The translations under genes and the position numbers were made by a program. Positions 130 to 25,405 of a stretch of 64,000 bases of DNA are shown here, piece after piece. The stretch lies in IMG/VR virus record IMGVR_UViG_3300044632_001319; one strand, given 5' to 3'. The DNA comes from a virus. The notes under the pieces are model-generated. The model saw only the letters and a list, made by a program, of their open reading frames with translations. It was not told where the DNA came from and did no database searches. Every line of letters begins with the position of its first letter. Within the stretch, counting starts at the first letter, position 1.

Positions 130-130
130 C

Positions 131-161
131 AACAAACCCCCTTACGGGGGTTTGTTTTTTT
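131..161. terminator. Intrinsic terminator between convergent genes, likely bidirectional
   Basis: AACAAACCCCC-TTAC-GGGGGTTTGTT hairpin followed by a T run. Confidence 0.85.
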
Positions 162-181
162 ATAAATGTGTATTTTTCAAC

Positions 182-925: not shown

Positions 926-936
926 ATTATTTCCTT

Positions 937-1503: not shown

Positions 1504-1556
1504 ATTATCTCCTATTATATTATATAGTTATATTTGTATATACGCCACAAGGTGGG

Positions 1557-1694
1557 TACTATCAACATCGGGGTACTATCAACAAATCGTTACTATCAAC
1601 CGTCCTGTGATATTATCAGACCATGCAACTTTCCATGGTCCGATAAATACTATCAACGCGACGCCCAGGGTCCGATAACGAAAGGACCGATAAC
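1557..1694. repeat. Repeat cluster 1 (TACTATCAAC x4; CCGATAA-type x4)
   Basis: TACTATCAAC at 1557, 1574, 1591, 1648; inverted repeat TTATCAGACCATG...CATGGTCCGATAA at 1613-1646; further CCGATAAC copies near 1672 and 1687. Confidence 0.9.
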
Positions 1695-1726
1695 AAAGTA
1701 TTTGTACAAATATCTTTCCCGAAGGC

Positions 1727-1755
1727 TTGCAATGTTTCAGATTTGTGATATCTTA
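1727..1755 (+). promoter_or_regulatory. sigma70-type promoter, leaderless
   Basis: TTGCAA...TATCTT with ATG at 1762 and no SD. Confidence 0.55.
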
Positions 1756-1761
1756 TACGCT

Positions 1762-2478: not shown

Positions 2479-2515
2479 TCACTTGACAGAAATACCCATT
2501 TGTGGTATAATACAC
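2479..2515 (+). promoter_or_regulatory. Early sigma70 promoter cassette, copy 1
   Basis: TTGACA-17-TATAAT with TG extension; 37 bp identical to 3417..3453. Confidence 0.9.
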
Positions 2516-2518
2516 ACC

Positions 2519-2806
2519 ATGACGAATCCACACATACTGAAACTGATGAACTTTCTCCGTGACTTCGCAGATGCGAACGCGGATTCGTTCGCTCCCGAGC
2601 AGATTGATTACTTGAATCAGGCAGCGGTTGCGATTGTCGTTCTCGACGAGGCGGTTGATAAACTTGTCAAGGAGCGCGACGATGCCTACGCGCAGATTGA
2701 CCGCTACAAGAATGGATACGAAGGCGGTTGCCATGTGTGTGAGGTTGTCGCGCTTCGCAATCAGGAACTTCTCAAGGAGCGCGACAATGCCCAAACGAAT
2801 CCTTGA
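2519..2806 (+). CDS. Hypothetical coiled-coil protein (leaderless)
   Basis: ATG 7 nt after the -10 box; KERDxA repeats; CxxC. Confidence 0.75.
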   Translation: MTNPHILKLMNFLRDFADANADSFAPEQIDYLNQAAVAIVVLDEAVDKLVKERDDAYAQIDRYKNGYEGGCHVCEVVALRNQELLKERDNAQTNP

Positions 2807-2987
2807 TCGTTTCGATTTGGAAGCAGAACGCGAAGGTGCAGCAGTAGTGAAGCACAATCGCACGATCTGCAAACCATTCGGAATCGGAAAGAAGATCACG
2901 AAGGAACGAAATGCTCGCGCAGACGGCGAAGCATTCATTGAACGACGAACCATCAAGCAATCATTCGCACAGACGAGGTACGCATGA
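2787..2987 (+). CDS. Small basic hypothetical protein
   Basis: MPKRILDRF start with AAGGAG SD; overlaps both neighbours. Confidence 0.6.
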   Translation: MPKRILDRFDLEAEREGAAVVKHNRTICKPFGIGKKITKERNARADGEAFIERRTIKQSFAQTRYA

Positions 2988-3400
2988 CCAACAACAACAT
3001 CAATCATCTTGACTACGAACTCCGCGCTGCTACCAAGCGCACCGATCTTCCCGATGACATCATCCGGCTGCTTGCGCGCGCTTACGGTGAGATCATTGCG
3101 AACGAAAGCACGATCTACCGCCTTGAGTCGCAGTACGGCGTTCAGTACGATAGGGCTGAGAAGATGATGAAGGAACGCGACGAAGCAAACGCAAACGCGA
3201 AACTGTACCGTGATGATCGGGACGAAGCACGGAAAGAGGTTTGCTTTCTCTCCGTGTTCGATCCCGAAGTTCCAAACGCGGACTACGAATACCACCAGCG
3301 CGAAGCTGCGATCAAGCGCGGATGGGAGTATCTCTTCTCATCGGAAGAGATGATGGACGCGGATGCGAACAACGAATACTTCAAGAAGAATCACCGCTAA
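2984..3400 (+). CDS. Hypothetical coiled-coil protein
   Basis: ATGA-coupled ORF with GAGG SD; ERDEA/DRDEAR repeats. Confidence 0.75.
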   Translation: MTNNNINHLDYELRAATKRTDLPDDIIRLLARAYGEIIANESTIYRLESQYGVQYDRAEKMMKERDEANANAKLYRDDRDEARKEVCFLSVFDPEVPNADYEYHQREAAIKRGWEYLFSSEEMMDADANNEYFKKNHR

Positions 3401-3416
3401 CGCGGTGGTTCTTTAT

Positions 3417-3453
3417 TCACTTGACAGAAATACCCATTTGTGGTATAATACAC
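3417..3453 (+). promoter_or_regulatory. Early sigma70 promoter cassette, copy 2
   Basis: Identical to 2479..2515. Confidence 0.9.
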
Positions 3454-3477
3454 GCACCCAAAGGAGGATTGCGTCCG

Positions 3478-3690
3478 ATGTGTAAGTGTTTCGACTGTGG
3501 CAATGAGATTCCCGCTGCGCGCCTCGAGTTTATTCCCGATACGGAATACTGCGTCGATTGCGCGGACAAGCACACTTTCAAGTCTGTTGCGCGAATCATC
3601 TACTCTCACAAGGCTGACTGTGAACTGTTCATTGCGCGTAGTCCCGAGGATGCGCGCCGTCTCAACCGCGAATACGCAAGGGCAAGGTAA
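3478..3690 (+). CDS. DksA/TraR-family C4 zinc-finger protein
   Basis: CFDCGNEIPAARLEFIPDTEYCVDC motif; AAGGAGG SD. Confidence 0.8.
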   Translation: MCKCFDCGNEIPAARLEFIPDTEYCVDCADKHTFKSVARIIYSHKADCELFIARSPEDARRLNREYARAR

Positions 3691-3693
3691 ACC

Positions 3694-3960
3694 ATGACAA
3701 AGAATCTCACACTTCATTCTCGCTACGGCGACAAGCGTACCGTGACTGCAAATGGTCACGGCATCTACACGATTGAGGGCAAGACGCACTACTACCGCGT
3801 TGGAATGGACGACGACAACACCAAGATCGGGTATTTCGATCCCGAAGGTGGACCGTTCATCAGCGTGGGTAGCGATTACGGATTCGGTACGATCACCGAA
3901 ATCTTCGTTGAGAAGTCAGAGGAAGGCAACTTCAAGATTCGCGTGGAGGTTGAGCAGTAA
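3694..3960 (+). CDS. Hypothetical protein
   Basis: ORF in tightly packed operon with matching codon usage. Confidence 0.7.
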   Translation: MTKNLTLHSRYGDKRTVTANGHGIYTIEGKTHYYRVGMDDDNTKIGYFDPEGGPFISVGSDYGFGTITEIFVEKSEEGNFKIRVEVEQ

Positions 3961-4202
3961 TGACACACAAGGAACACATGATTCGCTTTATTCAGGCTTT
4001 CCCCGAGAATGAGGATCTCTGCATTCTCGTCTTTAGTCGCGGTGATGCGGAGGGATTCCTTCCCGCGCTCCGAGAAGAGTCTGTTACCGATGCGGAGTGG
4101 GAACGCATTTGCGCGGACTTCAACAAGAACAAGCCCAGCGATGGCGACTGGGCAGACTTCGGGGATATCGTTTCCCGCAATCTCAAGGAGAGTGACGAAT
4201 GA
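3960..4202 (+). CDS. Hypothetical protein
   Basis: TAATG-coupled ORF. Confidence 0.7.
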   Translation: MTHKEHMIRFIQAFPENEDLCILVFSRGDAEGFLPALREESVTDAEWERICADFNKNKPSDGDWADFGDIVSRNLKESDE

Positions 4203-4393
4203 GCAGCAAGACACACACAATCATCGTGCTTTCGGACGGAGAAACTTGGAATACCATTTCGGGTTGCAGCATCATGGTCATCAGCGACGATCAGTTTCGT
4301 GATCTCTGCGACGACCGCATCTCTGCGAACGACCTGATTCCGATTACCGAAATCGGACTCCATGAGTTCGATGTGAAGGAGACTGACGAGTGA
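4199..4393 (+). CDS. Hypothetical protein
   Basis: ATGA-coupled, AAGGAG SD. Confidence 0.7.
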   Translation: MSSKTHTIIVLSDGETWNTISGCSIMVISDDQFRDLCDDRISANDLIPITEIGLHEFDVKETDE

Positions 4394-4848
4394 ACCAGGA
4401 TCTTGAAACCAAGCTCAGGAAGCGTTGGCCGAATCTGCTCAAGGATCAGACTTCGATTGAGTGCGGAGATGGTTGGTACGATCTCATCGACCTTGCGTGT
4501 CGTGCGATCAACTCCGAAATCACTTCCCGCGAGAACTACGAGCAGGTGAAGTACAACATCGTCGTCGCGCAGATCAAGGAGAAGTTCGGCGGACTGCGTT
4601 TCTACTACGATTCGTTCGCGGAGAGTGCTACCGTGGACAATCCCTACGATCTTCCCTCGACTGCGCGTGGACTTGGCATCGTTGACGGTGTGATTCGCAT
4701 GGCGGAACTCTACTCGTACCATGTGTGCGAGAACTGCGGCAACCGTGGCGACTGCGATGCATCTTCTAGACACCATCGCACCGAATGCATGGCGTGCAAT
4801 ACGATTCGTCGTGATGCGGAAGATGACCAGTACGGGCAAACGGCTTGA
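4390..4848 (+). CDS. Conserved phage hypothetical protein with Zn ribbon
   Basis: CGDGWYDLI...QIKEKFGGLRFY...CENCG...CMAC pattern, common in phages. Confidence 0.8.
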   Translation: MNQDLETKLRKRWPNLLKDQTSIECGDGWYDLIDLACRAINSEITSRENYEQVKYNIVVAQIKEKFGGLRFYYDSFAESATVDNPYDLPSTARGLGIVDGVIRMAELYSYHVCENCGNRGDCDASSRHHRTECMACNTIRRDAEDDQYGQTA

Positions 4849-4877
4849 CAAGAAATACCATTTGTGGTACAATACAC
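4845..4877 (+). promoter_or_regulatory. Early sigma70 promoter cassette, copy 3 (variant)
   Basis: TTGACAAGAAATACCATTTGTGGTACAATACAC, near-identical to copies 1 and 2. Confidence 0.85.
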
Positions 4878-4900
4878 AACTCACACAAGGAGATCGCGTA

Positions 4901-5233
4901 ATGAGCAAGCGTAAGAACAAGAAGAACAAGACTGAAACTGTGACGTATACTGCGCCTGATCGTGCTACACTGGAGTCTGCGTTGGATTCGATGTCCGAGG
5001 AGTGCGAGAGTTATCGCATTCATGTCGAGAATCTGCGCGAGGACATTCGCGCTGCATACGAGGAGATGGATACGCTCAAGGAGCGCAAGCGTGAGCTCGA
5101 GCGTGCGGTTATCTCGCAGTCCATTGAGCTTGCTCAGCTGCGTGGAATGCTGCAATGGGAGGATGACAAGAAGCGCGTGAATGCTGCGCGCAAGGCGGAG
5201 TGGATTCGTGCGGAGGATCACAATGACTTCTGA
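4901..5233 (+). CDS. Coiled-coil hypothetical protein
   Basis: AAGGAG SD, start MSKRKNKK. Confidence 0.7.
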   Translation: MSKRKNKKNKTETVTYTAPDRATLESALDSMSEECESYRIHVENLREDIRAAYEEMDTLKERKRELERAVISQSIELAQLRGMLQWEDDKKRVNAARKAEWIRAEDHNDF

Positions 5234-5432
5234 ATCCATCCCGAAGGCAAATCGTGATGCGATCAAGCAGTCGATTCTCGAAATGCTTGACGAACTCACG
5301 GATTGTGAATCAGTCGAGCTCGAGGACTTCATCGTGAACCATTGCGACAATGCGAGTTTCATTGACGACAATGGCGACTACCCGAATCTGTTTCGGATCT
5401 TCGTGACTGGTCGCCAGTCAGACTGTGAATGA
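5223..5432 (+). CDS. Acidic hypothetical protein
   Basis: GGAGG SD before ATG at 5223. Confidence 0.65.
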   Translation: MTSESIPKANRDAIKQSILEMLDELTDCESVELEDFIVNHCDNASFIDDNGDYPNLFRIFVTGRQSDCE

Positions 5433-5788
5433 TCGACCACTACCCCGAAGATGAGAAACGAATATCATTCGATGAACTCTCCGCTCGAGCGCGTGAAATC
5501 GACAAGCAAGTCAAGAAACAGCGAAAGCAAGACGAACGCGCTGTACTAGAACTCGAACGCATCCGCGAACAAGATCGCAAGCAATGGGAATACACAAACG
5601 GTGGACGAAACCCCGTTGGTGATGACCCAATCGCACTTGACGGTGATGAGCACAAGATGTACGAGAATCTTGGAATCAAAGACATGGAAACTGAGAACAA
5701 CGAATCCTCCAACAGCATCATTCCATTGATGCTCTCCGTGATCGCCATTGCGTGTTTCGTGTACCTTGTCAGCAAGTACGGATCCTGA
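5429..5788 (+). CDS. Hypothetical protein with C-terminal transmembrane anchor
   Basis: IIPLMLSVIAIACFVYLV tail. Confidence 0.7.
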   Translation: MIDHYPEDEKRISFDELSARAREIDKQVKKQRKQDERAVLELERIREQDRKQWEYTNGGRNPVGDDPIALDGDEHKMYENLGIKDMETENNESSNSIIPLMLSVIAIACFVYLVSKYGS

Positions 5789-5790
5789 AC

Positions 5791-6639
5791 ATGAGCAAGA
5801 GCAAGAAGTACCCTCGTTTCTCCCCCACTCGCACCGACAATCATCCGATTCTTGGAAAGGTCAAGGTTTACGATATCGGGAAGTATCCCACTCCCGATGA
5901 TGATGGATGCCAAACTTCGTTCTTTCACAACAATGCGGAAGTGGACAATGCGCGCCAGTTCGGGTTCAAGATGTTCAATACCAGCGTCGAAGCATTCGCT
6001 GCGTATCAGCGTCAGACACTCGCAGCAAAGGCAGGAATCGCACCGCCTACGGGTAAGATGATTCGTTGGATCGTCAAGTCCACCAATGGTCGCACAGTCA
6101 ATCGTTGGGGATACGAAACTGGGATTGCAGACTGCTCTCCGATTGCTCGAATCAAGGCAACGATTCTGTCGTGTCCTCAAGTCACGCGCTGGTATGTGGA
6201 TTATGTCCACAGCAACAATCTCAAGATGTTCTCCGCGAACAGCATGGAGATGTTTCTCGACCACGCGGAGGGCGAAGAGTACGAGAATGTGAACGGCAAG
6301 TATTTCGATTCGTTCTCTTGTGCAAGCAATACCACCGTGGATGGTTCGCTTCGCGTTCGACTCATGCAAATCGACCTCACGGGTACGCAGTACGACAATC
6401 TCGCTTCGGTGATTGATGACGGTTGCGTGTGGGCAGACAACATCAAACTTCGCCTGGGGCAGAAGGTGACTGCCAACGATGACATGATGATGGCGAATGA
6501 TCTGCACCGTGGCAATATTGCTCTGTGGAAGGGCAATCTCGTTGTGATCGACTTCGGATACCATATCGCGGTTCCCGAATACCGCGACTACGACAGACTG
6601 GAAATCATCACCAACCATTGGGGAAAGGTGGCAGTGTAA
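5791..6639 (+). CDS. Protein kinase-like (APH/RIO-type fold) protein
   Basis: FGFKMF (candidate catalytic Lys), DLHRGN catalytic loop, IDFG metal-binding motif. Confidence 0.7.
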   Translation: MSKSKKYPRFSPTRTDNHPILGKVKVYDIGKYPTPDDDGCQTSFFHNNAEVDNARQFGFKMFNTSVEAFAAYQRQTLAAKAGIAPPTGKMIRWIVKSTNGRTVNRWGYETGIADCSPIARIKATILSCPQVTRWYVDYVHSNNLKMFSANSMEMFLDHAEGEEYENVNGKYFDSFSCASNTTVDGSLRVRLMQIDLTGTQYDNLASVIDDGCVWADNIKLRLGQKVTANDDMMMANDLHRGNIALWKGNLVVIDFGYHIAVPEYRDYDRLEIITNHWGKVAV

Positions 6640-6917
6640 TGGACGGAAGCAGGACTCTCATCGTTCGCATTGATCTTCCCGACGATCAGCGAGACAACTT
6701 CCTCGAGCTGATGGAAGAGGGATTCAATCGTGGAAGCATCGACGGGTACTACATTCTCACGGACAATACCATTCCCGTCACACACAACGAACCGCATCTC
6801 CAGTACGAAACTCGTCTTGGTCGCGCAATCTCCGCGATTCAGCGTGATGAAGTCCTCATCGCAGGACTCGCAGACGCAGACCCCGAAACGGGTATCGAAT
6901 ACGGGGATCTCACTTGA
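6639..6917 (+). CDS. Hypothetical protein
   Basis: TAATG-coupled start MDGSRTL. Confidence 0.65.
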   Translation: MDGSRTLIVRIDLPDDQRDNFLELMEEGFNRGSIDGYYILTDNTIPVTHNEPHLQYETRLGRAISAIQRDEVLIAGLADADPETGIEYGDLT

Positions 6918-7107
6918 ACGCGCATACCGTAATCGACATCATCGGTGGTCTGTTCGTGGGATTGGTTGTGTTTCTGATGATCTACACCTTCGATAATGAA
7001 ATGGGAAAGAAGAAATGATTCTCTTTCTCGTCGCATCAGCATCGTTCATCGGATGCACAATCGCAATCCTTGTGATGGTATCACAAGAGAACAAAGACAG
7101 GGAATGA
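6914..7107 (+). CDS. Two coupled tiny single-TM proteins (6914..7018 and 7015..7107)
   Basis: Hand translation: (L)NAHTVIDIIGGLFVGLVVFLMIYTF... and MILFLVASASFIGCTIAILVMV...; fill the operon gap with TTGA/ATGA overlaps. Confidence 0.5.
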
Positions 7108-7114
7108 ATACCAC

Positions 7115-7477
7115 ATGAAAGAGCACTTTCTTTCCGCTAGCATCACGGCACACAGTCATTTCAATACCGCACCCGATTCGTTTCAGGGATTCGTGTTTCG
7201 CGCAGACGGAGATTGTGTCAGGATTCGTGAGGTGTTTTGGGACGGCAAGAACAAGAGGATGATGAGTTCGTGTCAGCGTGTGGTGTATTGTCCGCCAAGT
7301 GGTGTTGTCGATACCAACTTACGATCCGAATGGTACTTCACCGCAGATGGCGTAATGGGGTACTCGTTGGAATACGGACGCAGAATCTACCTTTCTCTCA
7401 AGAATCACTACAAATACCGTCCCGATGACATTCAGAAGGTCTACGATAAGGAAGCGATTCTTGAATACGCTAGCTGA
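7115..7477 (+). CDS. Hypothetical protein
   Basis: 120-aa ORF in operon. Confidence 0.7.
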   Translation: MKEHFLSASITAHSHFNTAPDSFQGFVFRADGDCVRIREVFWDGKNKRMMSSCQRVVYCPPSGVVDTNLRSEWYFTADGVMGYSLEYGRRIYLSLKNHYKYRPDDIQKVYDKEAILEYAS

Positions 7478-7808
7478 CGAAATACAAGCACTTTCCGACG
7501 ATACTGTGGCATACACCGTGCCACCGTATACGCCATTCGCAAATGGATTTCCTGCTGTTCTTGAGAACAGTCCAAATCGGTTTGCTCTTACGAATGGTGA
7601 CGGATGGGAAGTCTCTTTCTTCTACTACCCATTCGCAGCAGAGGCATTCATCGTCGGATTCCGTGACGGCAAACATCGTAGGCACACTAGTGATGCCATT
7701 CGCAATACCAACATGATCGTGGAATACGATCAATGGATTCCCGTCGAACTCGCGCGTGACTACTGGCGTTTCCTTGTCAAAGACTGCGGATGCAAGAGGA
7801 TCAAATGA
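7461..7808 (+). CDS. Hypothetical protein
   Basis: ORF 7425..7808; probable TTG start at 7461 behind AAGGAAG. Confidence 0.6.
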   Translation: MNTLADEIQALSDDTVAYTVPPYTPFANGFPAVLENSPNRFALTNGDGWEVSFFYYPFAAEAFIVGFRDGKHRRHTSDAIRNTNMIVEYDQWIPVELARDYWRFLVKDCGCKRIK

Positions 7809-8095
7809 CCAACGCATTTCTTCCATCTTCTACTCACTACTACAATGAGACAGAGTACAAGATCACTCTGTCATATGCGAACGATCACAAGTACGACTTC
7901 ATTCTCTTTCACCCACAGAAGGATAAGAAGGTTCATGCGCTGATCGAAACGACCAAAGATGCGCGCATTCTCTCCATCGAATACGACCTGATTCAAGATC
8001 GGTTTCTTCCATGTGAGAACGATACGGTTCATGTATTTCCGAATCGGACAATCGCAATGCGGTATTTAGAGAAGTTTCGAAAAGCTTTCAAATAA
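7805..8095 (+). CDS. Hypothetical protein, last gene of the operon
   Basis: GAGG SD, ATGA overlap. Confidence 0.65.
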   Translation: MTNAFLPSSTHYYNETEYKITLSYANDHKYDFILFHPQKDKKVHALIETTKDARILSIEYDLIQDRFLPCENDTVHVFPNRTIAMRYLEKFRKAFK

Positions 8096-8176
8096 CAAAT
8101 AAAGAGGAAAGAAGAGAGAAGAGAAGAGTACATCAAAGACTGTATGTATGTGAGTGGAAATACAGTCTCAATAGCA

Positions 8177-8222
8177 TGGGAATAGGTGAGGAATGGGTGA
8201 GGAATGGGTGAGGAATGGGTGA
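8177..8222 (+). repeat. 11-bp tandem repeat (GGGTGAGGAAT), about 3.5 copies
   Basis: ...GGGAATAGGTGAGGAATGGGTGAGGAATGGGTGAGGAATGGGTGA. Confidence 0.85.
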
Positions 8223-8375
8223 CTAGGAAGGTGCGGAATAAGGTATCAGGGAATGTGAGGCTAAGCCCATTCCCCACCAACCACAATGATTCACAATCGC
8301 TCACAATAAACCACAACCCGCACAACAAACCGTAAATAACAATAAATCATTCAGAGATTGACAATTACACAGGGA

Positions 8376-8549
8376 TACTATCAACAATCAATACTATCAA
8401 CGGGGTATGGTCAGCCTAGTAGAGTTAGACAGCCTTTGTGGTCTAGCGCAATAATAGTCCGATAACATGGTCCGATAATAACTATCAACAGACCGGCTAT
8501 GCTGGATATTATCAGACCATGTGAGAGTGATAACCATGGGTCGATAACG
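8376..8549. repeat. Repeat cluster 2 (TACTATCAAC / GTCYGATAA)
   Basis: TACTATCAAC at 8376 and 8392, AACTATCAAC at 8480; GTCCGATAA twice at ~8457-8478; GATATTATCAGACCATG identical to the copy at 1609; GGTCGATAAC at ~8539. Confidence 0.9.
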
Positions 8550-8579
8550 TGATATTCGCGGGAATATCGTTCAAGGGGC

Positions 8580-8608
8580 TTGCAATGCGGATCGACCTAT
8601 GATATACT
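8580..8608 (+). promoter_or_regulatory. sigma70 promoter, leaderless
   Basis: TTGCAA-17-TATACT, ATG 6 nt downstream. Confidence 0.8.
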
Positions 8609-8614
8609 ATATGC

Positions 8615-8899
8615 ATGAGCAACAAGACTCTCAACGGCATGAACAAGTCCGCCTCCAACAACCGCAAGGGTTCGCGTGGTCCGCGTCCGATTCAGACGGT
8701 CGCACAGCTTCGTGAGAACCTGCTCCGTGATGCGCTCGCGCGTGAGATCAAGAAGATCGACCGCAAGATCGCGGTGAATACGCGCAAGCGTTCCGCTGCT
8801 CAGGTTCGCGTCAACGATGCGAATGCTGCGCTCGAGAACCTGAACCGCATTCGTGCGGAGTTCCTTGCGGAGTCGAATCTCGCCCCTAAGAAGGCCTGA
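8615..8899 (+). CDS. Basic coiled-coil protein, paralogue of 10157..10417
   Basis: NKSASN...GPRPIxTVAQLRExLLR...KKIDRK shared between the two. Confidence 0.8.
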   Translation: MSNKTLNGMNKSASNNRKGSRGPRPIQTVAQLRENLLRDALAREIKKIDRKIAVNTRKRSAAQVRVNDANAALENLNRIRAEFLAESNLAPKKA

Positions 8900-8915
8900 T
8901 TCGGTTCGCGTGCGA

Positions 8916-8985
8916 GATTCGATCATCCAAATGGAAGGAGCACCCATATCGGGTAGCAATGCGGGTTCGAATCCCGCTCGAATCT
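8916..8985 (+). ncRNA. tRNA-like element with aberrant anticodon arm
   Basis: Acceptor GATTCGA/TCGAATC, D-like TCC-AAATGGAA-GGA, canonical T arm GCGGG-TTCGAAT-CCCGC, anticodon arm only ACCC-ATATC-GGGT. Confidence 0.65.
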
Positions 8986-9059
8986 TTCGGAGTCTTTCAA
9001 AGGTAAGAGGAGAATCCCCTCCCGCTCCATTTCAGTCAAGTCAAACGAAAGAGATCAAC

Positions 9060-9506
9060 ATGAGCAACAACAACAACACTCTCGTCCGTCCCGATGGTTC
9101 CGTGAACTGTGACAATCCGCGCGTGGTCGCTGCGCTGGTGGATAGCATCGGCATGATCCTCACTCGCACCTTTCAGGATCTCAAGGCGAACCCTGAGCTC
9201 CTCGACGCGATTCCCGATGACTCGAAGGCGGATCTCGACTGCGTTCTCCAGACGCTTCGCATGATTCGCAACAACATCGGAGTCGATACCGATTGGTTCA
9301 ACGAGAACCAGGCCAACATGGTTCCCACGATCATGCGGGAGTCGCGTGAGACTTCGGAGCGTCGTGCTGAAACCATCGTCAAGGCGATGCTGGCTGCGGG
9401 ATTCCCGATGGACATGGTTCCGCCTGAGTTCCGCCCCAAGCCGGATGCTGCCACTACTGCGGATGCGCTGCTCGACTCGCTCCGCGCCGATGGAATCATC
9501 GGCTAA
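9060..9506 (+). CDS. Hypothetical protein
   Basis: Start MSNNNNTLVRP within ORF 8853..9506; strongly biased codon usage. Confidence 0.75.
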   Translation: MSNNNNTLVRPDGSVNCDNPRVVAALVDSIGMILTRTFQDLKANPELLDAIPDDSKADLDCVLQTLRMIRNNIGVDTDWFNENQANMVPTIMRESRETSERRAETIVKAMLAAGFPMDMVPPEFRPKPDAATTADALLDSLRADGIIG

Positions 9507-9526
9507 ACAATCGTTGCTCTCTCTTG

Positions 9527-9560
9527 GCCCCCCGTAAGTAATACGCTTACGGGGGGCTTT
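9527..9560 (+). terminator. Intrinsic terminator
   Basis: GCCCCCCGTAAG-TAATACG-CTTACGGGGGGC then TTT. Confidence 0.8.
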
Positions 9561-9603
9561 ACATTTGATGTTTATGTAAATATCAATTGTCAATATTGAC
9601 ATT

Positions 9604-9646
9604 TACTATCAACAAATGATACTATCAACGCGGGGGGGTTATCGGA
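9604..9646. repeat. Repeat cluster 3, at the convergence point of early transcription
   Basis: TACTATCAAC at 9604 and 9620; GTTATCGGA (reverse of TCCGATAAC) at ~9638. Confidence 0.85.
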
Positions 9647-9657
9647 TCAGAGTGCGA

Positions 9658-9903
9658 CTAGCGAATCGGGTGCGGAGTCTTCAATCGGGTGAGCTCCTCG
9701 AGCCGATTCGCTGCAATGCGCTTGACGCGCTCGAGCTCGATCGCCTTGAGCTGATGGCGCTCGCGTCGATCCATGATCTCTTGCCGCAACCGCTCGAGCT
9801 CGAGCTTCATTGCGGTGATCTCATTCGCGAGATCCTGCGCGATGTCTTCGTTGTTGGATGCCATGAGGAACGCGATGGTATTGTTCGTTGCGGGAGTGTT
9901 CAT
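9658..9903 (-). CDS. Coiled-coil hypothetical protein
   Basis: 81-aa ORF with heptad pattern. Confidence 0.7.
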   Translation of the reverse strand: MNTPATNNTIAFLMASNNEDIAQDLANEITAMKLELERLRQEIMDRRERHQLKAIELERVKRIAANRLEELTRLKTPHPIR

Positions 9904-9972
9904 GTTCAGATGCTCGTTTGGTCGTTGATGTTGAGAAAGTCGATGTCGGTTGCGGGATTCGGTTCGTATCGG

Positions 9973-10155
9973 TCACCCATCGTCATCCTCGTCTTCCGTT
10001 TCGCCCTCTGGCGCTTCGATGTCGTTGAAGTCTCCGAAATCGCCGTCGATGTCGGAGAGATCGAAATCGTCATCGTCGTGAGGATTGTAGCGCGAGTCAC
10101 GATCCCCATTCCCGTAGTACCAGCCGTCGTCGTCGTTGTTGTGTGGGTATGCCAT
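9973..10155 (-). CDS. Small very acidic protein
   Basis: GGAGG SD before MAYPHNNDDDG; Asp/Glu-rich. Confidence 0.65.
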   Translation of the reverse strand: MAYPHNNDDDGWYYGNGDRDSRYNPHDDDDFDLSDIDGDFGDFNDIEAPEGETEDEDDDG

Positions 10156-10156
10156 G

Positions 10157-10417
10157 TTAGTTCGCCTCCGCAGCGTATTCCGCGCGGACCTCGCGCAGAC
10201 CGTCCAGCTGCGTCTGCGTGCTGAGGAGCTTGTCACGCAGCAGCGCCTCGCGGCGGATGAGCTTCGTCATCTTGCGGTCGATCTTCTTCATCTCCTTGAT
10301 CATCATCTCGCGCAGCAGCTTCTCACGCAGCTGGGCGACGGTCACGATCGGACGCGGACCCTTGCGACCCTTGTTGGAGGCGGACTTGTTTGCACCGTTG
10401 TTGCTCTTGTTGCTCAT
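10157..10417 (-). CDS. Basic coiled-coil protein, paralogue of 8615..8899 (leaderless)
   Basis: MSNKSNNGANKSASNK...; preceded on the - strand by TTGACA-17-TAGAAT. Confidence 0.8.
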   Translation of the reverse strand: MSNKSNNGANKSASNKGRKGPRPIVTVAQLREKLLREMMIKEMKKIDRKMTKLIRREALLRDKLLSTQTQLDGLREVRAEYAAEAN

Positions 10418-10490
10418 GTGTGTCATTCTACCTTAGATCGTTGTTGTTGTCAAGCCGGCCGTTTACGATTGTGGACTGATTGTGGATAAG

Positions 10491-10889
10491 TCAGGCCTTG
10501 GGATTCGCGAGGAGCGTATCGTAGATCCCCTGCGCAGTCATGGTATCCCATCCCTTCTCTTCAACGAACTCGATGCAGCGCGTAAGGTACGCGGTGATTT
10601 CGTTCGGCGTAACCTTGCCCATCGACGGATTCCATCCGTTGCCCTTGCCCAGGCGACCGATGCGCTCCTGCTTGCCGAAGAACTTGTCATAGCCGGCAAC
10701 GCGCGTGAGGAACCCGAGCTCGGAAGTCACGACCGTTTCCATGCGGGAAAGGGCCATGTCTCCACTCTGCCAGTCAGCGCGCACTTCCGCGATGAAGTCG
10801 ATGAGCGGGAGCGCGCGGTACAGACGGGCGTGCTTCTGAGCCATGGTTTCGGGGCGGGTCGCGTTGGCGTTGTTGGTCTTGCTGTTCAT
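10491..10889 (-). CDS. Hypothetical protein (leaderless)
   Basis: Preceded on the - strand by TTGCAT-17-TATACT with ATG 6 nt downstream. Confidence 0.75.
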   Translation of the reverse strand: MNSKTNNANATRPETMAQKHARLYRALPLIDFIAEVRADWQSGDMALSRMETVVTSELGFLTRVAGYDKFFGKQERIGRLGKGNGWNPSMGKVTPNEITAYLTRCIEFVEEKGWDTMTAQGIYDTLLANPKA

Positions 10890-11120
10890 GCTATAAGTAT
10901 ATGGTATGACGCGCCAAATGCAAGCCCCTTGACGAGATTTCTTGGTAGATTTGTGCGGCCTATATCGGTCATCACACAGTGAAATCAGGTTAGGAGGATG
11001 TTAGGGGTGTCAGGGGCTAGCAATTTTCCCCACCATACTCAAAAAGTCCCCAAAGTTCATCCCCCCCCCCCATTCTCTATAATAAATCGAATCCCTCGAA
11101 TATCTAAAATTTTCGCGGTA

Positions 11121-11128
11121 TATAAATA
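11121..11128 (+). promoter_or_regulatory. T4-type late promoter
   Basis: TATAAATA 18 nt upstream of ATG 11147. Confidence 0.75.
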
Positions 11129-11146
11129 CTTTCTATAAAGTCGCAT

Positions 11147-12142
11147 ATGAAACCCTTTAAACAATTCATCATCGAATCGGCAAAGAATAAATTTGACTTC
11201 AAGGATAATTCACTCTTTGTTGTTAATTCAAATAAGAAATTACACATTGTGCACACACCAGAAGAAGATAAAGGATTTGATGTCTTCATAGAACATGATG
11301 ATGTATTACCACAGTTCAACTACGCAATGAACGATAATGATACTACTGAAGAAAATAAACATAAACCACGACCTTTATCTTTCGGAAGAATCGATCATAA
11401 GAATAAGATGTTCTATATTATTAGTCAAGCAAAGGGTCAACCAGAAGGTAAAGAACAATATGGTCGTCCAGACTATACTCTTATGCGTAAAAAAGATGTA
11501 GAAAATGATGTCTATAATCGGTTGCATACTGCAAGAGCAGTTCATGAAAAACATCCTGGATATAGAATCGAAGTTTCTGGTCATCCTAATCATATGGTAT
11601 TGTCATTACCCGAGTATGAAAAATTTTTGATGTCGCAGATGGATACCGAATTAAAAGAGTCTGCAATTGAACCAAAAGTAGATCCACCCGATCAATGGCC
11701 TACAGCATTTGATCCGAATTCTGGTCAATGGAGTGATCCTATGCAGTCTCCAAATGATTCATATGATCAAACACAACCATATATACCCCCGAGTATTGTC
11801 GATATATGGTATGCGATTCCTGAGTGGATGAGAGATAATATTCCTCCAAATCATATACCGTGGGTCACCAAAGAATTATGGAAAATACTTGAATTCTATT
11901 ACGGCCCACCACAAAACTGGGATCCCATTCTTGGATGGAACCCATGGCAAAATGTGCCATCGGGAATGAATCCATGGCATACTCCTTTTTGGATGACTCC
12001 TGCCTTTAGGGGAGCAGTGAAGGAATTGTGGGGAAGATATCAACGTTGGAGGCAAGGACCAAAACCACAACCATTCTCTCCTCTTCAATATCCAGAATCA
12101 ATTGATCCAGAGTATCAAGTAACACCAGGTTGGTGGGCATAA
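11147..12142 (+). CDS. Candidate internal head protein with Pro/Trp-rich C-terminal half
   Basis: MKPFKQFIIES resembles T4 IP capsid-targeting sequences; internal LKE junction. Confidence 0.75.
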   Translation: MKPFKQFIIESAKNKFDFKDNSLFVVNSNKKLHIVHTPEEDKGFDVFIEHDDVLPQFNYAMNDNDTTEENKHKPRPLSFGRIDHKNKMFYIISQAKGQPEGKEQYGRPDYTLMRKKDVENDVYNRLHTARAVHEKHPGYRIEVSGHPNHMVLSLPEYEKFLMSQMDTELKESAIEPKVDPPDQWPTAFDPNSGQWSDPMQSPNDSYDQTQPYIPPSIVDIWYAIPEWMRDNIPPNHIPWVTKELWKILEFYYGPPQNWDPILGWNPWQNVPSGMNPWHTPFWMTPAFRGAVKELWGRYQRWRQGPKPQPFSPLQYPESIDPEYQVTPGWWA

Positions 12143-23460: not shown

Positions 23461-23488
23461 TTGACATCTGAAGTGCATCTGATATAAT
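23461..23488 (+). promoter_or_regulatory. sigma70 promoter for the tRNA/tmRNA operon
   Basis: TTGACA-16-TATAAT. Confidence 0.85.
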
Positions 23489-23500
23489 AGATGCATCAAC

Positions 23501-23575
23501 GCGCTGCGGGAGGTCTTGGTTATCTCAGCTCGACTTATAATCGAGTAAGACTTGGTTCGAATCCAAGGCAGCGTA
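23501..23575 (+). tRNA. tRNA-Ile(UAU)
   Basis: GCGCTGC/GCAGCGT acceptor, CTCGA-CT-TAT-AA-TCGAG, T arm CTTGG-TTCGAAT-CCAAG, A73. Confidence 0.85.
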
Positions 23576-23579
23576 TTAC

Positions 23580-23653
23580 GCCCTAATAGATTAACCGGCT
23601 AAATCCCTGCCCTTTCAAGGCAGTGAGTCGGGGTTCGAGTCCCCGTTAGGGTA
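23580..23653 (+). tRNA. tRNA-Glu(UUC)
   Basis: CTGCC-CT-TTC-AA-GGCAG, canonical T arm. Confidence 0.9.
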
Positions 23654-23749: not shown

Positions 23750-23762
23750 TTTGGAGTATAAC

Positions 23763-24077
23763 ATGACATTACCAAATGAATGGTTCATCTCAATGAAAAA
23801 GAATCGTCAGTTCTTGTTTGATCTTCTTGATCCAACAAAGACACCGAAGGTTCCCAAGGAAATTCGTAAGCGAGCATCTGAATGCTTGAAGCATTTTCCG
23901 ATGGACTTTGAAATTCAAGAACTAGAAACAATGTTTGAGAATTCCCACAAGGATAAGGGAATTCTCATTGGTGAAACAAATAAGGAACTTCAAAGAATCG
24001 CTGGTCAAGCAATTCTAGTGAATTCAAGTCTCAGCAAACTTAGTTCTGCAATTCAAAATACACTAAATAATCCTTGA
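23763..24077 (+). CDS. Conserved phage hypothetical protein
   Basis: MTLPxE...FLxDLLDPxKTPKVPKEIRxRAxxCLKHFP pattern; GGAG SD. Confidence 0.75.
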   Translation: MTLPNEWFISMKKNRQFLFDLLDPTKTPKVPKEIRKRASECLKHFPMDFEIQELETMFENSHKDKGILIGETNKELQRIAGQAILVNSSLSKLSSAIQNTLNNP

Positions 24078-24327
24078 TATCGTTGATCTTTGTGAACTAA
24101 CCTAATGCACGGGGGTGCGAATCCCCCCATCTCCATTCGACGGGGATGAACAGAATCGACATGGGTGTGTAAGCAATAGGGAGATATTCGAGAGGTCGTC
24201 AACAACCCTCGTTAAATGCCAAAGTTGGCAACATAAATGCCGCACCAATGCGGATGGCTGCTTGAAGCAGTGGGGAATGGTTCTCCCGCATCTGAATGAA
24301 CTACCCACCAGTGATGGTGGGTTTTTT
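24076..24327 (+). ncRNA. ssrA: Circularly permuted (two-piece) tmRNA
   Basis: T arm and 3' acceptor strand CATCTCC-A (24111-24135) lie upstream of the 5' strand GGGGATG (24142); G3.U70 pair and A73; pk1-like pseudoknot; tag ORF AAPMRMAA* at 24239-24265; 5' end approximate. Confidence 0.88.
24299..24327 (+). terminator. Intrinsic terminator ending the tmRNA unit
   Basis: ACCCACCA-GTGA-TGGTGGGT then T run. Confidence 0.85.
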
Positions 24328-24427
24328 ATATACATAGTAGTAGGATGGCGTTCGTGATATCTATAGTTTGCTTATATTATCTCTTATTCATAATTTTTCA
24401 TAAGAGCATGTTATATAAGGAATCTGT

Positions 24428-24757: not shown

Positions 24758-24805
24758 AAGTAGTCATTGACAAATCATAAATACAAGATATAATGGAGAT
24801 CACCC

Positions 24806-25367: not shown

Positions 25368-25405
25368 GCTTGACAACCCACAATTATGTGATATAATTGT
25401 GGTAT

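What the first reader, a model, noticed from the sequence alone, without database searches (positions are those of the whole stretch)
24076..24327. Phage-encoded circularly permuted two-piece tmRNA with a very short degradation tag
Seen in sequence: the T arm (GGGGG-TGCGAAT-CCCCC) and 3' acceptor strand CATCTCC-A come before the 5' strand GGGGATG, separated by only 6 nt (TTCGAC). They pair as a 7-bp stem with G3.U70 and A73, the AlaRS identity elements. A pk1-like pseudoknot follows (CGAG/CTCG stem; loop GTCAAC pairing with GTTGGC), then a resume context ATAAAT-GCC, the tag AAPMRMAA-TGA and a terminator. Established knowledge: permuted tmRNAs are known from Alphaproteobacteria and some cyanobacteria and Betaproteobacteria, and C-terminal AA tags are ClpXP-type degrons. 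Inference: this is a minimal (~250 nt) viral version lacking pk2-4, possibly an independent permutation event. It could supplement or redirect host trans-translation during infection.
Basis: partly seen in the sequence, partly recalled or inferred. Interest (0 to 1): 0.8.

Follow-up and report, generated by a model that had tools for sequence, protein, structure and literature searches.

The report
Two-piece tmRNA gene in T4-like phage
An uncultured T4-like phage carries a real, back-to-front (two-piece) gene for tmRNA, the RNA that frees stalled ribosomes, with an unusually short 8-residue tag; phage genes of this kind are already published, so this is a new and somewhat odd family of a known thing.

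Summary
ARAGORN calls a permuted tmRNA with tag AAPMRMAA, and Rfam tmRNA_permuted (RF04321) scores 70.1 bits against a threshold of 47 at 24076-24265.

I collected 97 related viral or metagenome loci:
- All 93 with upstream sequence have a 7-bp acceptor stem (11 covarying versions), G3.U70 and A73. None encodes CCA.
- P2, the T arm and both pk1 stems covary.
- The tag is always 8 codons starting with an Ala codon 9-11 nt after pk1. The longer 15-codon frame implied by the Rfam alignment is broken in relatives.

- Phage two-piece tmRNAs are published (Melnitz, pelagimyophages, cyanomyoviruses S-CAM1/S-CRM01/S-SSM7; PMC9004378), and they are as compact as this one.
- The RNA does not lack all later pseudoknots. 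A second pseudoknot 3' of the tag is supported by covariation.
- Tags of 2 residues are known, so 8 is short but not extreme.
- An independent permutation event is neither supported nor excluded. The family fails all three lineage models (window: beta 38.8 bits, threshold 84).

Most likely it is cut by host RNase P, trimmed, given CCA, charged by host AlaRS and used with host SmpB to rescue ribosomes during infection. This scan found the same family earlier on other DNA (e1-5786890). Interest is modest.

The parts
23461..23488 (+). Perfect sigma-70-type promoter (TTGACA, 16 nt, TATAAT with TG) upstream of tRNA-Ile. It is the probable start of the transcription unit that ends at the tmRNA terminator.
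   Evidence: 12 of 12 consensus matches. The only + strand terminator-like site between it and 24400 is 24303-24327. That these form one transcription unit is inferred, not shown.
23501..23653 (+). tRNA-Ile(UAU) and tRNA-Glu(UUC), upstream members of the same probable unit. Neither encodes CCA.
23751..24077 (+). 108-aa ORF of unknown function. Its stop codon TGA (24075-24077) overlaps the first two bases of the tmRNA gene.
   Evidence: ORF; no Pfam family. The C-terminal coding sequence is conserved upstream of the tmRNA in L007, L017 and L019.
24076..24135 (+). Acceptor piece, 60 nt before CCA addition. It holds the P2 3'-side strands (P2a GATATC 24076-24081, P2b 24087-24093, P2d 24100-24107), the T arm 24111-24127, the 3' acceptor strand CATCTCC 24128-24134 and the discriminator A73 at 24135.
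   Evidence: Rfam alignment; dissection; covariation (T arm 99% canonical with 3 of 5 pairs compensatory; P2a 98% with 3 of 6 compensatory); coordinates.
24136..24141 (+). Intervening spacer TTCGAC, to be removed. RNase P would cut 5' of G24142, and the trailer after A24135 would be trimmed before CCA is added.
   Evidence: Spacer length is 5 to 173 nt across 93 relatives while both flanks are conserved. The processing steps are inferred from established tmRNA and tRNA maturation.
24142..24188 (+). Start of the coding piece. It holds the 5' acceptor strand GGGGATG (24142-24148, G3 = 24144), the D-loop analogue AACAGAATCGA (24149-24159) and the P2 5'-side strands (P2d 24160-24166, P2b 24173-24180, P2a GATATT 24183-24188).
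   Evidence: Acceptor stem is 99% canonical with 3 of 7 positions compensatory. G1-C72, G2-C71 and G3.U70 are invariant.
24189..24229 (+). Pseudoknot pk1. Stem 1 is CGAGAGG (24189-24195) with CCCTCG (24206-24211). Stem 2 is GTCAAC (24198-24203) with GTTGGC (24224-24229).
   Evidence: In subfamily B, stem 1 becomes CGACAC/GTGTCG and stem 2 becomes GTAAC/GTTGC, the coordinated loss of one base pair.
24239..24265 (+). Tag reading frame GCC GCA CCA ATG CGG ATG GCT GCT TGA, giving AAPMRMAA then stop. The resume codon is GCC at 24239, 9 nt after pk1.
   Evidence: ARAGORN. In 96 loci the tag is always 8 codons, codon 1 is always GCN, and it lies 9-11 nt after pk1. The alternative start at GCC 24218 is broken by a 1-nt indel, is ACC or TTG in some relatives, and is absent in subfamily B.
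24257..24271 (+). Hairpin GCTGC-TTGAA-GCAGT with the stop codon in its loop, the equivalent of helix 5.
   Evidence: It is invariant in relatives, so there is no covariation for or against it.
24270..24303 (+). Second pseudoknot, 3' of the tag. Stem 1 is GTGGG (24270-24274) with CCCGC (24285-24289). Stem 2 is the loop TGGTTC (24278-24283) with GAACTA (24298-24303).
   Evidence: 15 different stem-2 versions at the same position in relatives (for example GGTCA/TGACC, GACCA/TGGTC, TGATCC/GGATCA, CCCGGTTTT/AAAACCGGG). Cognate score averages 6.2 against 2.3 for shuffled sequence. Stem 1 is invariant.
24303..24327 (+). Intrinsic terminator: stem ACCCACC...GGTGGGT followed by TTTTTT. This is the probable 3' end of the coding piece.
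   Evidence: The stem sequence differs but still pairs in relatives.

Best explanation
Window 24076-24327 is a functional, circularly permuted (two-piece) tmRNA gene of an uncultured T4-like myovirus.

Shown by sequence and comparison:
- The gene order is [P2 3' strands, T arm, 3' acceptor strand, A73], then a 6-nt spacer, then [5' acceptor strand, P2 5' strands, pk1, 8-codon tag, stop-codon hairpin, second pseudoknot, terminator].
- All helices of the tRNA-like domain, P2 and both pseudoknots are kept by compensatory changes in relatives.
- G3.U70 and A73 never change.
- The tag frame A-[N/A/E]-x-[M/L]-[A/R]-[M/I/V/R]-A-A-stop is conserved in length and position.

Inferred mechanism:
- The gene is probably transcribed together with tRNA-Ile, tRNA-Glu and a small ORF from the sigma-70-type promoter at 23461.
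- Host RNase P cuts 5' of G24142.
- The 6-nt trailer after A24135 is trimmed by host 3' exonucleases.
- The host CCA-adding enzyme adds CCA, as it must for the phage's five tRNAs, none of which encodes CCA.
- The roughly 63-nt acceptor piece and roughly 186-nt coding piece stay joined through the 7-bp acceptor stem and P2.
- Host AlaRS charges the RNA with alanine, and host SmpB and EF-Tu deliver it to ribosomes stalled on broken mRNAs.
- Translation resumes at GCC 24239 and stops at TGA 24263, adding AAPMRMAA. The C-terminal Ala-Ala probably marks the product for ClpXP-type proteolysis.

The likely benefit to the phage is to keep ribosome-rescue capacity up during infection, when host transcription (including host ssrA) is shut off and mRNA cleavage is heavy.
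For: Detection:
- ARAGORN calls a permuted tmRNA at 24043-24356 with tag AAPMRMAA.
- Rfam RF04321 gives 70.1 bits against a threshold of 47.

Relatives:
- An identical gene occurs in a contig from another sample (L002).
- 97 related loci were found in IMG/VR and JGI metagenomes.
- All 93 loci with upstream sequence have a T arm, a 7/7 acceptor stem (11 versions), G3.U70 and A73, and none encodes CCA.

Covariation:
- Acceptor stem 99% canonical with 3 of 7 positions compensatory; T arm 3 of 5; outer P2 3 of 6; the three TLD-proximal P2 pairs all compensatory. No partner shuffle out of 1000 reached the observed pairing.
- Cognate P2 strands pair better than swapped ones (-15.9 against -13.0 kcal/mol; 0 of 5000 permutations).
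- pk1 stems 1 and 2 change together between subfamilies A and B.
- The second pseudoknot has 15 stem-2 versions at one site.

Tag:
- 25 unique nucleotide versions and 13 peptides, always 8 codons, always starting with Ala, 9-11 nt after pk1.

Host dependence:
- No SmpB or CCA-adding enzyme gene in five partial related genomes.
- The phage's own tRNA genes also lack CCA.

Precedent:
- Published phage two-piece tmRNAs have the same layout and lie in the same tRNA-cluster setting.
- ssrA tags and C-terminal alanine tails are ClpXP substrates (review PMC8012679).
Against: - There is no expression, processing, charging or tagging data for this RNA or any member of its family.
- The host is unknown, so compatibility with host AlaRS, SmpB and proteases cannot be checked.
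- The T loop reads UGCGAAU, with G at the position of the usual U55. The same loop occurs in bona fide bacterial tmRNAs.
- The 5' end of the acceptor piece abuts an ORF, and how it is released is unknown.
- The related genomes searched for SmpB are only 27-76% complete, and the window's own genome is not held, so a phage SmpB is not excluded.
- Whether ...RMAA is a good ClpXP degron is untested.
- Part of the tag conservation is by construction, because one scan used the tag as its pattern. The pk1-based scans remove that bias.
Confidence: 0.82

Rival explanations
1. Tag redirection. The RNA works as a tmRNA, but its phage-specific 8-residue tag lacks the N-terminal adaptor-binding part of canonical tags, and in this subgroup it carries Pro and Arg. 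The tag would give rescued proteins a fate different from host-tagged ones: slower or faster turnover, a different protease, or none. The phage would then reprogram rather than merely supplement trans-translation.
For: - The tag length is fixed at 8 in 96 loci. It differs from the 10-31-residue tags of lineage-typical phage and bacterial two-piece tmRNAs seen here, such as ANDERFALAA, ANFNEYALAA and ANTSDSAANNIVAFSRSTVAA.
- The window's subgroup replaced ANxLAMAA-type tags with AAPMRMAA or AAPMRRAA.
- Buchholz et al. raise selective tagging as a possible role for phage tmRNA.
Against: - The C-terminal [M/I/V]-A-A is kept in all but the three AAPMRRAA loci, as in ordinary degradation tags.
- Bacterial tmRNAs with tags of only Ala-Ala exist, so a short tag does not imply a new function.
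- No data exist on the host's proteases or adaptors.
Confidence: 0.15
2. Decoy or inhibitor. The RNA is not used for tagging. Instead it titrates host SmpB, AlaRS or EF-Tu, or blocks host trans-translation, as reported for the tRNA-like-domain-only tmRNA of mycobacteriophage DS6A.
For: - A phage TLD-only tmRNA that inhibits endogenous tmRNA is on record (PMC4131195; PMC11915505).
- No phage SmpB was found in related partial genomes.
Against: A decoy needs neither pk1 nor a reading frame. Here pk1 covaries, the resume codon sits at a fixed distance from it, the 8-codon frame and in-frame stop are kept through 25 nucleotide versions, and an indel just upstream leaves the frame intact.
Confidence: 0.05
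3. Independent origin. This phage family arose by its own permutation event, making it a fourth two-piece lineage, rather than by capture of an alpha-, beta- or cyanobacterial two-piece gene.
For: - The family passes only the generic RF04321 model.
- Its lineage scores are far below threshold and inconsistent: beta 24-47 bits (threshold 84), cyano 31-42 (threshold 70), alpha 25-41 (threshold 50). Two nearly identical genes, L014 and L015, are assigned to different lineages.
- Published phage genes, by contrast, pass their host lineage's model.
- There is no blastn match to 50,697 GenBank phages.
Against: - Low scores are expected once most of the 3' domain modelled by the lineage CMs has been lost, so they do not show a separate origin.
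- Related phage groups (Kyanoviridae-like) already carry captured two-piece genes in the same tRNA-cluster position. Capture followed by fast divergence is therefore the simpler account.
- ANELAMAA and ANQLAMAA tags resemble shortened proteobacterial tags.
- No one-piece relative that could be an ancestor was found.
Confidence: 0.1
4. Relic. The gene is a decaying fragment of host ssrA picked up by recombination or by integration at a tmRNA gene, and has no function.
For: tmRNA genes are common integration sites, and ssrA fragments occur in prophages. Eleven of the 13 IMG/VR contigs sharing the 25-nt T-arm string carry host-type beta tmRNAs.
Against: - Both halves are complete and every helix is intact in the window.
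- The gene lies in a T4-like lytic-type genome among tRNA genes.
- Dozens of diverged copies keep pairing through compensatory changes, and all keep the frame.
Confidence: 0.02

Closest known systems
Two-piece tmRNAs of T4-like cyanomyoviruses (S-CAM1 NC_020837, S-CRM01 NC_015569, S-SSM7 NC_015287; listed in Table S1 of Buchholz et al. 2022, PMC9004378)
   Same: - Permuted gene order in a Kyanoviridae-type phage, next to tRNA genes.
- Similar overall size: ARAGORN spans of 310-352 nt against 314 nt here.
- Very short spacer (about 5 nt in S-CAM1).
- All pass RF04321.
- The window's gp32 is 47-49% identical to that of cyanomyoviruses.
   Different: - Those genes pass the cyanobacterial lineage model (74-128 bits, threshold 70) and encode 19-31-residue tags such as ANTSDSAANNIVAFSRSTVAA.
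- This family passes no lineage model (window: beta 38.8 bits, threshold 84) and has a fixed 8-residue tag.
- There is no blastn similarity.
Two-piece tmRNA of OM43 phage Melnitz and pelagimyophages (HTVC008M NC_020484, Mosig); Buchholz et al. 2022
   Same: A phage-encoded permuted ssrA in marine or aquatic T4-like myophages. The proposed roles are the same: maintaining the hijacked translation machinery or selective tagging.
   Different: - HTVC008M is a clear alpha-type gene (RF01849 83.8 bits, threshold 50) with a canonical 10-residue tag, ANFNEYALAA.
- Melnitz carries a glutamine riboswitch in the gene's 3' domain.
- No riboswitch or other Rfam family matches in or near the gene here.
Betaproteobacterial two-piece tmRNA (Rfam RF01850; Sharkady and Williams 2004, cited in PMC9004378)
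   Same: - It is the best sub-threshold lineage hit for the window (38.8 bits).
- The 25-nt T arm plus 3' acceptor string is identical to that of beta-type genes in 11 IMG/VR contigs.
- The pk1 placement is similar, as is the UAAAU-GCC resume context.
   Different: - The beta genes are 367-421 nt by ARAGORN, score 88-125 bits, and have 10-11-residue tags (ANDERFALAA, ANDSQFALAA).
- The shared 25-mer also occurs in a one-piece tmRNA of a Candidatus Uhrbacteria MAG, so it is not diagnostic of lineage.
Bacterial tmRNAs with extremely short tags (2-aa Ala-Ala, Fermentibacterota; PMC11915505)
   Same: A tag shorter than the modal 10 residues that ends in Ala-Ala.
   Different: Those are bacterial genes with a 2-residue tag. 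Here the tag is 8 residues, with variable internal positions, and the gene is phage-borne.
Mycobacteriophage tmRNAs (Bxz1 group, one-piece) and the DS6A tRNA-like-domain-only RNA (PMC4131195)
   Same: Phage-encoded members of the tmRNA system. DS6A provides the decoy precedent.
   Different: Those are one-piece or lack a tag frame. This gene is permuted and has pk1 and a conserved frame.

Membership tests
tmRNA, permuted (two-piece) form (Rfam RF04321) | Scores at or above the curated gathering threshold of the family covariance model | tested here: met
   70.1 bits against a threshold of 47, covering model positions 1-213 of 213. Relatives score 48.7-77.4 bits.
tmRNA, permuted (two-piece) form (Rfam RF04321) | tRNA-like domain: a 7-bp acceptor stem and a T arm, with the 3' half encoded upstream of the 5' half | tested here: met
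   T arm 24111-24127 and acceptor strand 24128-24134 pairing with 24142-24148. The same layout is found in 93 of 93 relatives, with compensatory changes.
tmRNA, permuted (two-piece) form (Rfam RF04321) | AlaRS identity elements G3.U70 and discriminator A73 | tested here: met
   G24144 opposite T24132, and A24135. These are invariant in 93 loci while positions 4-7 of the stem vary.
tmRNA, permuted (two-piece) form (Rfam RF04321) | Long helix P2 joining the two pieces | tested here: met
   Outer P2 is 98% canonical with 3 of 6 pairs compensatory, and the TLD-proximal pairs are compensatory. Cognate strands beat swapped ones, with 0 of 5000 permutations reaching the cognate mean. The inner segments P2b and P2c could not be scored cleanly across subfamilies.
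tmRNA, permuted (two-piece) form (Rfam RF04321) | Pseudoknot pk1 just upstream of the resume codon | tested here: met
   Both stems change in a coordinated way between subfamilies A and B. The resume codon lies 9-11 nt after stem 2 in 96 loci.
tmRNA, permuted (two-piece) form (Rfam RF04321) | Short tag reading frame that starts with an Ala codon, ends in hydrophobic-Ala-Ala, and is followed by an in-frame stop | tested here: met
   AAPMRMAA followed by TGA. Relatives show 13 peptide and 25 nucleotide versions, all 8 codons, all starting with GCN and ending in Ala-Ala then a stop.
tmRNA, permuted (two-piece) form (Rfam RF04321) | Precursor cut into two RNAs, CCA added, alanine charged, SmpB bound, peptide tag added to stalled products | not testable with these tools
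   No transcript or biochemical data exist. Indirect support: the spacer varies from 5 to 173 nt with conserved flanks, and CCA is missing from the phage's tRNA genes too.
[quoted passage not shown] | Scores at or above the gathering threshold of one lineage model | tested here: not met
   The window's best score is beta at 38.8 bits (threshold 84). Relatives score beta 24-47, cyano 31-42 (threshold 70) and alpha 25-41 (threshold 50). Published phage genes do pass.

The most novel reading that the evidence does not exclude
This orphan family is a fourth, phage-born lineage of two-piece tmRNA. It would have arisen by its own permutation, or diverged beyond recognition inside phages. Its fixed 8-residue tag would have been tuned so that proteins rescued during infection meet a phage-specific fate, rather than the host's normal SspB/ClpXP route.
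Probability: 0.1. Interest if true: 0.55.

Novelty: new member of a known kind. Interest (0 to 1): 0.3.

Why it matters
Phage-encoded tmRNAs show that large lytic phages bring part of the ribosome-rescue system along with their tRNAs. No phage two-piece tmRNA has been tested experimentally in the papers I could read.

It is absent from GenBank isolates at blastn level, and ARAGORN misses some members (L007, L016, L017, L018).

It is a compact natural design of about 250 nt: a tRNA-like domain, P2, two small pseudoknots and an 8-codon tag. That makes it a convenient minimal model for asking what a tmRNA needs in order to work, and what a short tag does.

For annotation, it shows that the generic RF04321 model is needed to catch phage genes that the three lineage models miss.

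None of this changes the current understanding of trans-translation.

Tried and rejected
1. The longer tag AKVGNINAAPMRMAA starting at GCC 24218, as implied by the Rfam alignment. Rejected: a 1-nt indel in L007, L016 and L019 breaks that frame; the codon is ACC in L021 and L025 and TTG in L034; and it is absent in subfamily B.

2. A betaproteobacterial origin argued from the exact 25-nt T-arm plus acceptor match. Withdrawn: the same string occurs in a one-piece tmRNA of a Candidatus Uhrbacteria MAG.

3. blastn of subfamily A and B genes against 50,697 GenBank phages found no match. Megablast of 14 kb around the gene found only a tRNA match.

4. The MAFFT alignment A2 was meant for the count of structure pairs. 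The 5' acceptor strand was mis-registered next to the variable spacer, so I counted pairs in Python on anchor-based alignments instead. The count of structure pairs and my own covariance model were therefore not used.

5. Script slips, corrected and rerun:
   - a pk1 regex that matched too early (fixed);
   - a resume-context regex (fixed);
   - an unconstrained 'longest helix' test for the second pseudoknot that was too permissive, with shuffled sequence averaging 5.1 bp, replaced by a position-restricted test.

6. A T4 late promoter directly upstream. The window has only ACTAAATA (two mismatches to TATAAATA) at 24062-24069. Only 11 of 93 relatives have the perfect motif, so it is not a family feature.

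7. An Rfam search of the long spacer inserts of relatives at E up to 1 found no family.

8. SmpB (PF01668) and CCA-adding enzyme (PF01743) were not found in five partial related genomes. The window's own genome is not held.

9. Pfam and PHROGs gave nothing for the ORFs flanking the gene.

10. Flynn et al. 2001 on tag recognition is not held in the library, so statements on which tag residues ClpX and SspB read rest on general knowledge.

11. The host and environment of the phage could not be determined.
Full report

Yes.

- T arm: GGGGG-TGCGAAT-CCCCC, 24111-24127.
- 3' acceptor strand: CATCTCC, 24128-24134, followed by the discriminator A at 24135.
- Spacer: TTCGAC, 24136-24141.
- 5' acceptor strand: GGGGATG, 24142-24148. 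The stem has 7 base pairs, with G3 (24144) opposite U70 (24132).
- pk1 stem 1: CGAGAGG 24189-24195 with CCCTCG 24206-24211.
- pk1 stem 2: GTCAAC 24198-24203 with GTTGGC 24224-24229.
- Tag: GCC GCA CCA ATG CGG ATG GCT GCT TGA, 24239-24265.
- Intrinsic terminator: 24303-24327.

ARAGORN independently calls a permuted tmRNA at 24043-24356 with the tag AAPMRMAA. Rfam's tmRNA_permuted model RF04321 matches 24076-24265 end to end at 70.1 bits against a threshold of 47, with E = 1.9e-11 for the whole window.

**2. What carries it?**

The window comes from a T4-like myovirus.

- It encodes a gp32-type single-strand-binding protein (PHROG 224, E 4e-88) and baseplate wedge proteins.
- The gp32 is 47-49% identical to that of Synechococcus and Prochlorococcus myoviruses of the Kyanoviridae.
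- No GenBank phage is close at the DNA level, and no whole genome is held for the window.
- The tmRNA lies among tRNA genes: Lys, Gly, Ile and Glu upstream, and Arg downstream.
- A perfect sigma-70-type promoter sits at 23461-23488, just before tRNA-Ile. The only + strand terminator before 24400 is the one that ends the tmRNA.
- So tRNA-Ile, tRNA-Glu, a 108-codon ORF (23751-24077, no known family) and the tmRNA probably form one unit. That is an inference.
- The ORF's stop codon overlaps the first two bases of the tmRNA gene.

**3. Relatives and covariation**

Collecting relatives:
- Exact-pattern scans of IMG/VR and JGI metagenomes used the T-arm string, the pk1 string, the tag string and a second pk1 string.
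- Together they gave 97 loci of this family.
- One contig from another sample (L002) is identical to the window in this region.
- There are two subfamilies. Type A includes the window. Type B has a different pk1 sequence and a shorter 3' end.

tRNA-like domain:
- In all 93 loci with enough upstream sequence, I found a T arm directly followed by a 7-nt strand fully complementary to the 5' strand, and then an A.
- Eleven different stem versions occur. G1-C72, G2-C71, G3.U70 and A73 never change.
- CCA is never encoded.

Pair counts on 33 unique sequences:

| Helix | Canonical pairs | Pairs with two-sided changes |
|---|---|---|
| Acceptor stem | 99% | 3 of 7 |
| T arm | 99% | 3 of 5 |
| Outer P2 helix | 98% | 3 of 6 |
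| Three P2 pairs next to the tRNA-like domain | n/a | all three |

- No partner shuffle out of 1000 reached the observed pairing for any of these helices.
- An alignment-free test agrees. Cognate P2 strands form more stable duplexes than swapped ones (-15.9 against -13.0 kcal/mol; 0 of 5000 permutations).
- The relatedness of the sequences inflates such statistics. Even so, the number of independent compensatory versions is large.

pk1:
- Stem 1 is CGAGAGG/CCCTCG in type A and CGACAC/GTGTCG in type B.
- Stem 2 is GUCAAC/GUUGGC in type A and GUAAC/GUUGC in type B. That is a coordinated loss of one whole base pair.

**4. Which tag?**

The Rfam alignment placed the resume codon at an earlier UAAAU-GCC (GCC at 24218). 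That is in frame in the window and would give a 15-residue tag. Relatives reject this reading.
- L007, L016 and L019 have a 1-nt insertion between the two GCC codons. This breaks the long frame and leaves the short one intact.
- The first GCC is ACC in L021 and L025 and TTG in L034, and it does not exist in type B.
- The earlier GCC also lies inside a loop of pk1.

Most relatives had been found with the tag string itself. I therefore also used a pk1-based scan that does not depend on the tag. Results from 96 loci:
- The frame ending at the conserved stop is always 8 codons.
- Codon 1 is always GCN, in all 25 unique nucleotide versions.
- It begins 9-11 nt after pk1 stem 2.

| Peptide | Loci |
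|---|---|
| AAPMRMAA | 44 |
| ANQLAMAA | 11 |
| AAPMAMAA | 9 |
| ANELAMAA | 8 |
| ANYMAMAA | 6 |
| ANKLAMAA | 4 |
| AAPLRMAA | 4 |
| AAPMRRAA | 3 |

Five further peptides occur in one or two loci each. The ANxLAMAA forms look like shortened versions of ordinary proteobacterial tags.

**5. A second pseudoknot**

There is no room for three pseudoknots, but one compact pseudoknot does follow the tag.
- Stem 1 is GUGGG (24270-24274) with CCCGC (24285-24289). It is invariant in relatives.
- The 3' part of its loop, UGGUUC (24278-24283), pairs with GAACUA (24298-24303), just after a conserved CUGAA linker.
- Relatives show 15 different versions of this second stem at the same position. Examples are GGUCA/UGACC, GACCA/UGGUC, UGAUCC/GGAUCA, GCCCGGUUU/AAACCGGGC and CCCGGUUUU/AAAACCGGG.
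- The cognate score averages 6.2, against 3.8 for swapped partners and 2.3 for shuffled sequence.
- In type B this stem doubles as the terminator hairpin.
- A first, unconstrained version of this test was too permissive and was discarded.

**6. The spacer**

The window's 6-nt spacer belongs to the shortest class (5-6 nt, 21 loci). Other relatives have 11-13, 31, 71-73, 95-99 (39 loci), 122-136 or 165-173 nt. Variable length with conserved flanks is what an excised segment should show.

The long inserts are two different structured RNAs with covariation of their own and no Rfam match. They are not in the window, so maturation cannot depend on them.

**7. How it most likely works**

Shown: the anatomy described above and its conservation.

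Inferred from established tmRNA and tRNA biology:
- RNase P cuts 5' of G24142.
- The trailer after A24135 is trimmed.
- The host CCA-adding enzyme adds CCA. None of the phage's five tRNA genes encodes CCA either, and all are followed by T-rich trailers, so the phage already relies on this step.
- The two pieces stay paired through the acceptor stem and P2.
- Host AlaRS reads G3.U70 and A73.
- Host SmpB delivers the RNA to stalled ribosomes.
- The 8-residue tag is added, and its C-terminal Ala-Ala makes the product a protease substrate. ssrA tags are read by ClpXP, ClpAP and Lon, and alanine tails by ClpXP (PMC8012679).

No SmpB or CCA-adding enzyme gene was found in five related genomes. Those genomes are only 27-76% complete.

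The benefit to the phage is an inference: it would sustain ribosome rescue while host transcription is off and mRNA is being degraded. The alternative roles (tag redirection, decoy) are listed as rivals. The conserved frame argues strongly against a pure decoy.

**8. Comparison with what is known**

Phage two-piece tmRNAs are published.
- Buchholz et al. 2022 describe one in OM43 phage Melnitz. They count 53 unique two-piece calls among 133 phage tmRNAs, 50 of them from aquatic phages, including cyanomyoviruses, pelagimyophages and Caulobacter phages.
- The tmRNA database lists 79 unique phage sequences, and tags as short as 2 residues.

I retrieved four of the published genes.

| Phage | Lineage model score | Tag |
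|---|---|---|
| S-CAM1 | cyano_tmRNA 128 bits (threshold 70) | 21 residues |
| S-SSM7 | cyano_tmRNA 109 bits (threshold 70) | 31 residues |
| S-CRM01 | cyano_tmRNA 74 bits (threshold 70) | 19 residues |
| HTVC008M | alpha_tmRNA 84 bits (threshold 50) | ANFNEYALAA |

- They are as compact as the window's gene, and S-CAM1 has a spacer of about 5 nt.
- The window's family differs in passing no lineage model. The window scores beta 38.8 bits against a threshold of 84. Its relatives are split inconsistently among beta, cyano and alpha at 24-47 bits.
- It also differs in its fixed 8-residue tag, and in having no blastn match among 50,697 GenBank phages.
- The tag string AAPMRMAA occurs in no paper of the library.

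**9. Origin**

I first took the exact 25-nt identity of the T arm plus acceptor strand with beta-type tmRNAs as a sign of betaproteobacterial origin. The same string occurs in a one-piece tmRNA of a Candidatus Uhrbacteria MAG, so it is not diagnostic.

The lineage of origin is unresolved. An independent permutation is possible, but nothing positive supports it. Capture of a bacterial two-piece gene followed by fast divergence is the simpler account, because related phages demonstrably carry captured genes in the same setting.

**10. Verdict**

- The gene is a new, atypical family of an already described kind.
- This scan met the same family earlier on another genome and reached the same conclusion (e1-5786890).
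- Interest is modest. The most interesting loose ends are the origin of the family, the meaning of the fixed 8-residue tag, and the structured spacer RNAs of relatives, which lie outside this window.

Noticed in passing
Relatives only, e.g. L024:157-501(-), L031:6984-7302(-), L036:2652-2971(+), L066; not in the window: In 48 related loci the tmRNA spacer holds a conserved 71-99-nt structured RNA that begins UUAGCCUAAC. It has a closing GCC/GGC helix (GGC/GCC in L066) and two hairpins whose loops CUGCAA and UAGCAG are complementary (CUGUAA/UUACAG in L030); the 39 loci of the 95-99-nt class add a third hairpin. The stems covary, and there is no Rfam match at E up to 1. It sits exactly where the precursor must be cut, so it could be a processing element, a self-cleaving RNA or a passenger small RNA.
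   Followed up: partly
Relatives only, e.g. L017:7173-7548(+), L018:7351-7737(-), L049, L070, L105: A second, unrelated spacer insert of 122-173 nt. It has a long covarying closing stem (GACACUAU/AUAGUGUC) and three or four internal hairpins, with conserved GCGUAAAACGG...ACCGACAAAGC. There is no Rfam match. The same insert occurs in tmRNAs with different P2 and T-arm types (L017 against L018), so it seems to move by recombination.
   Followed up: partly
window 1-12000 against 12000-64000: G+C content is about 0.46-0.51 in the first 12 kb and 0.35-0.39 in the rest. None of the six large ORFs in 1-12 kb that I scanned (part) has a Pfam family.
   Followed up: no
window 23461-23488, 24767-24794, 25370-25397: Three perfect sigma-70 consensus promoters (TTGACA, 16 nt, TATAAT) lie within 2 kb on the + strand. 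Two of them sit directly before tRNA genes. This looks like a set of strong early promoters for the tRNA and small-gene region.
   Followed up: no
L007, L016, L017, L018 (relatives): ARAGORN does not call the tmRNA in these four loci, although RF04321 does (48.7-66.9 bits) and manual dissection finds all the parts. Two of them have long spacers or divergent T loops such as GGCAGUA. Routine annotation will therefore undercount this family.
   Followed up: partly
L058:331-734(-), JAHFIO010000004.1: A Candidatus Uhrbacteria MAG has a standard one-piece tmRNA (tag AKSIVNRVGTLIASAFNVSAPAMVLA). Its T arm and 3' acceptor strand are identical over 25 nt to the phage gene. A second contig of the same MAG (L059) holds a 3' fragment of the same gene.
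   Followed up: partly
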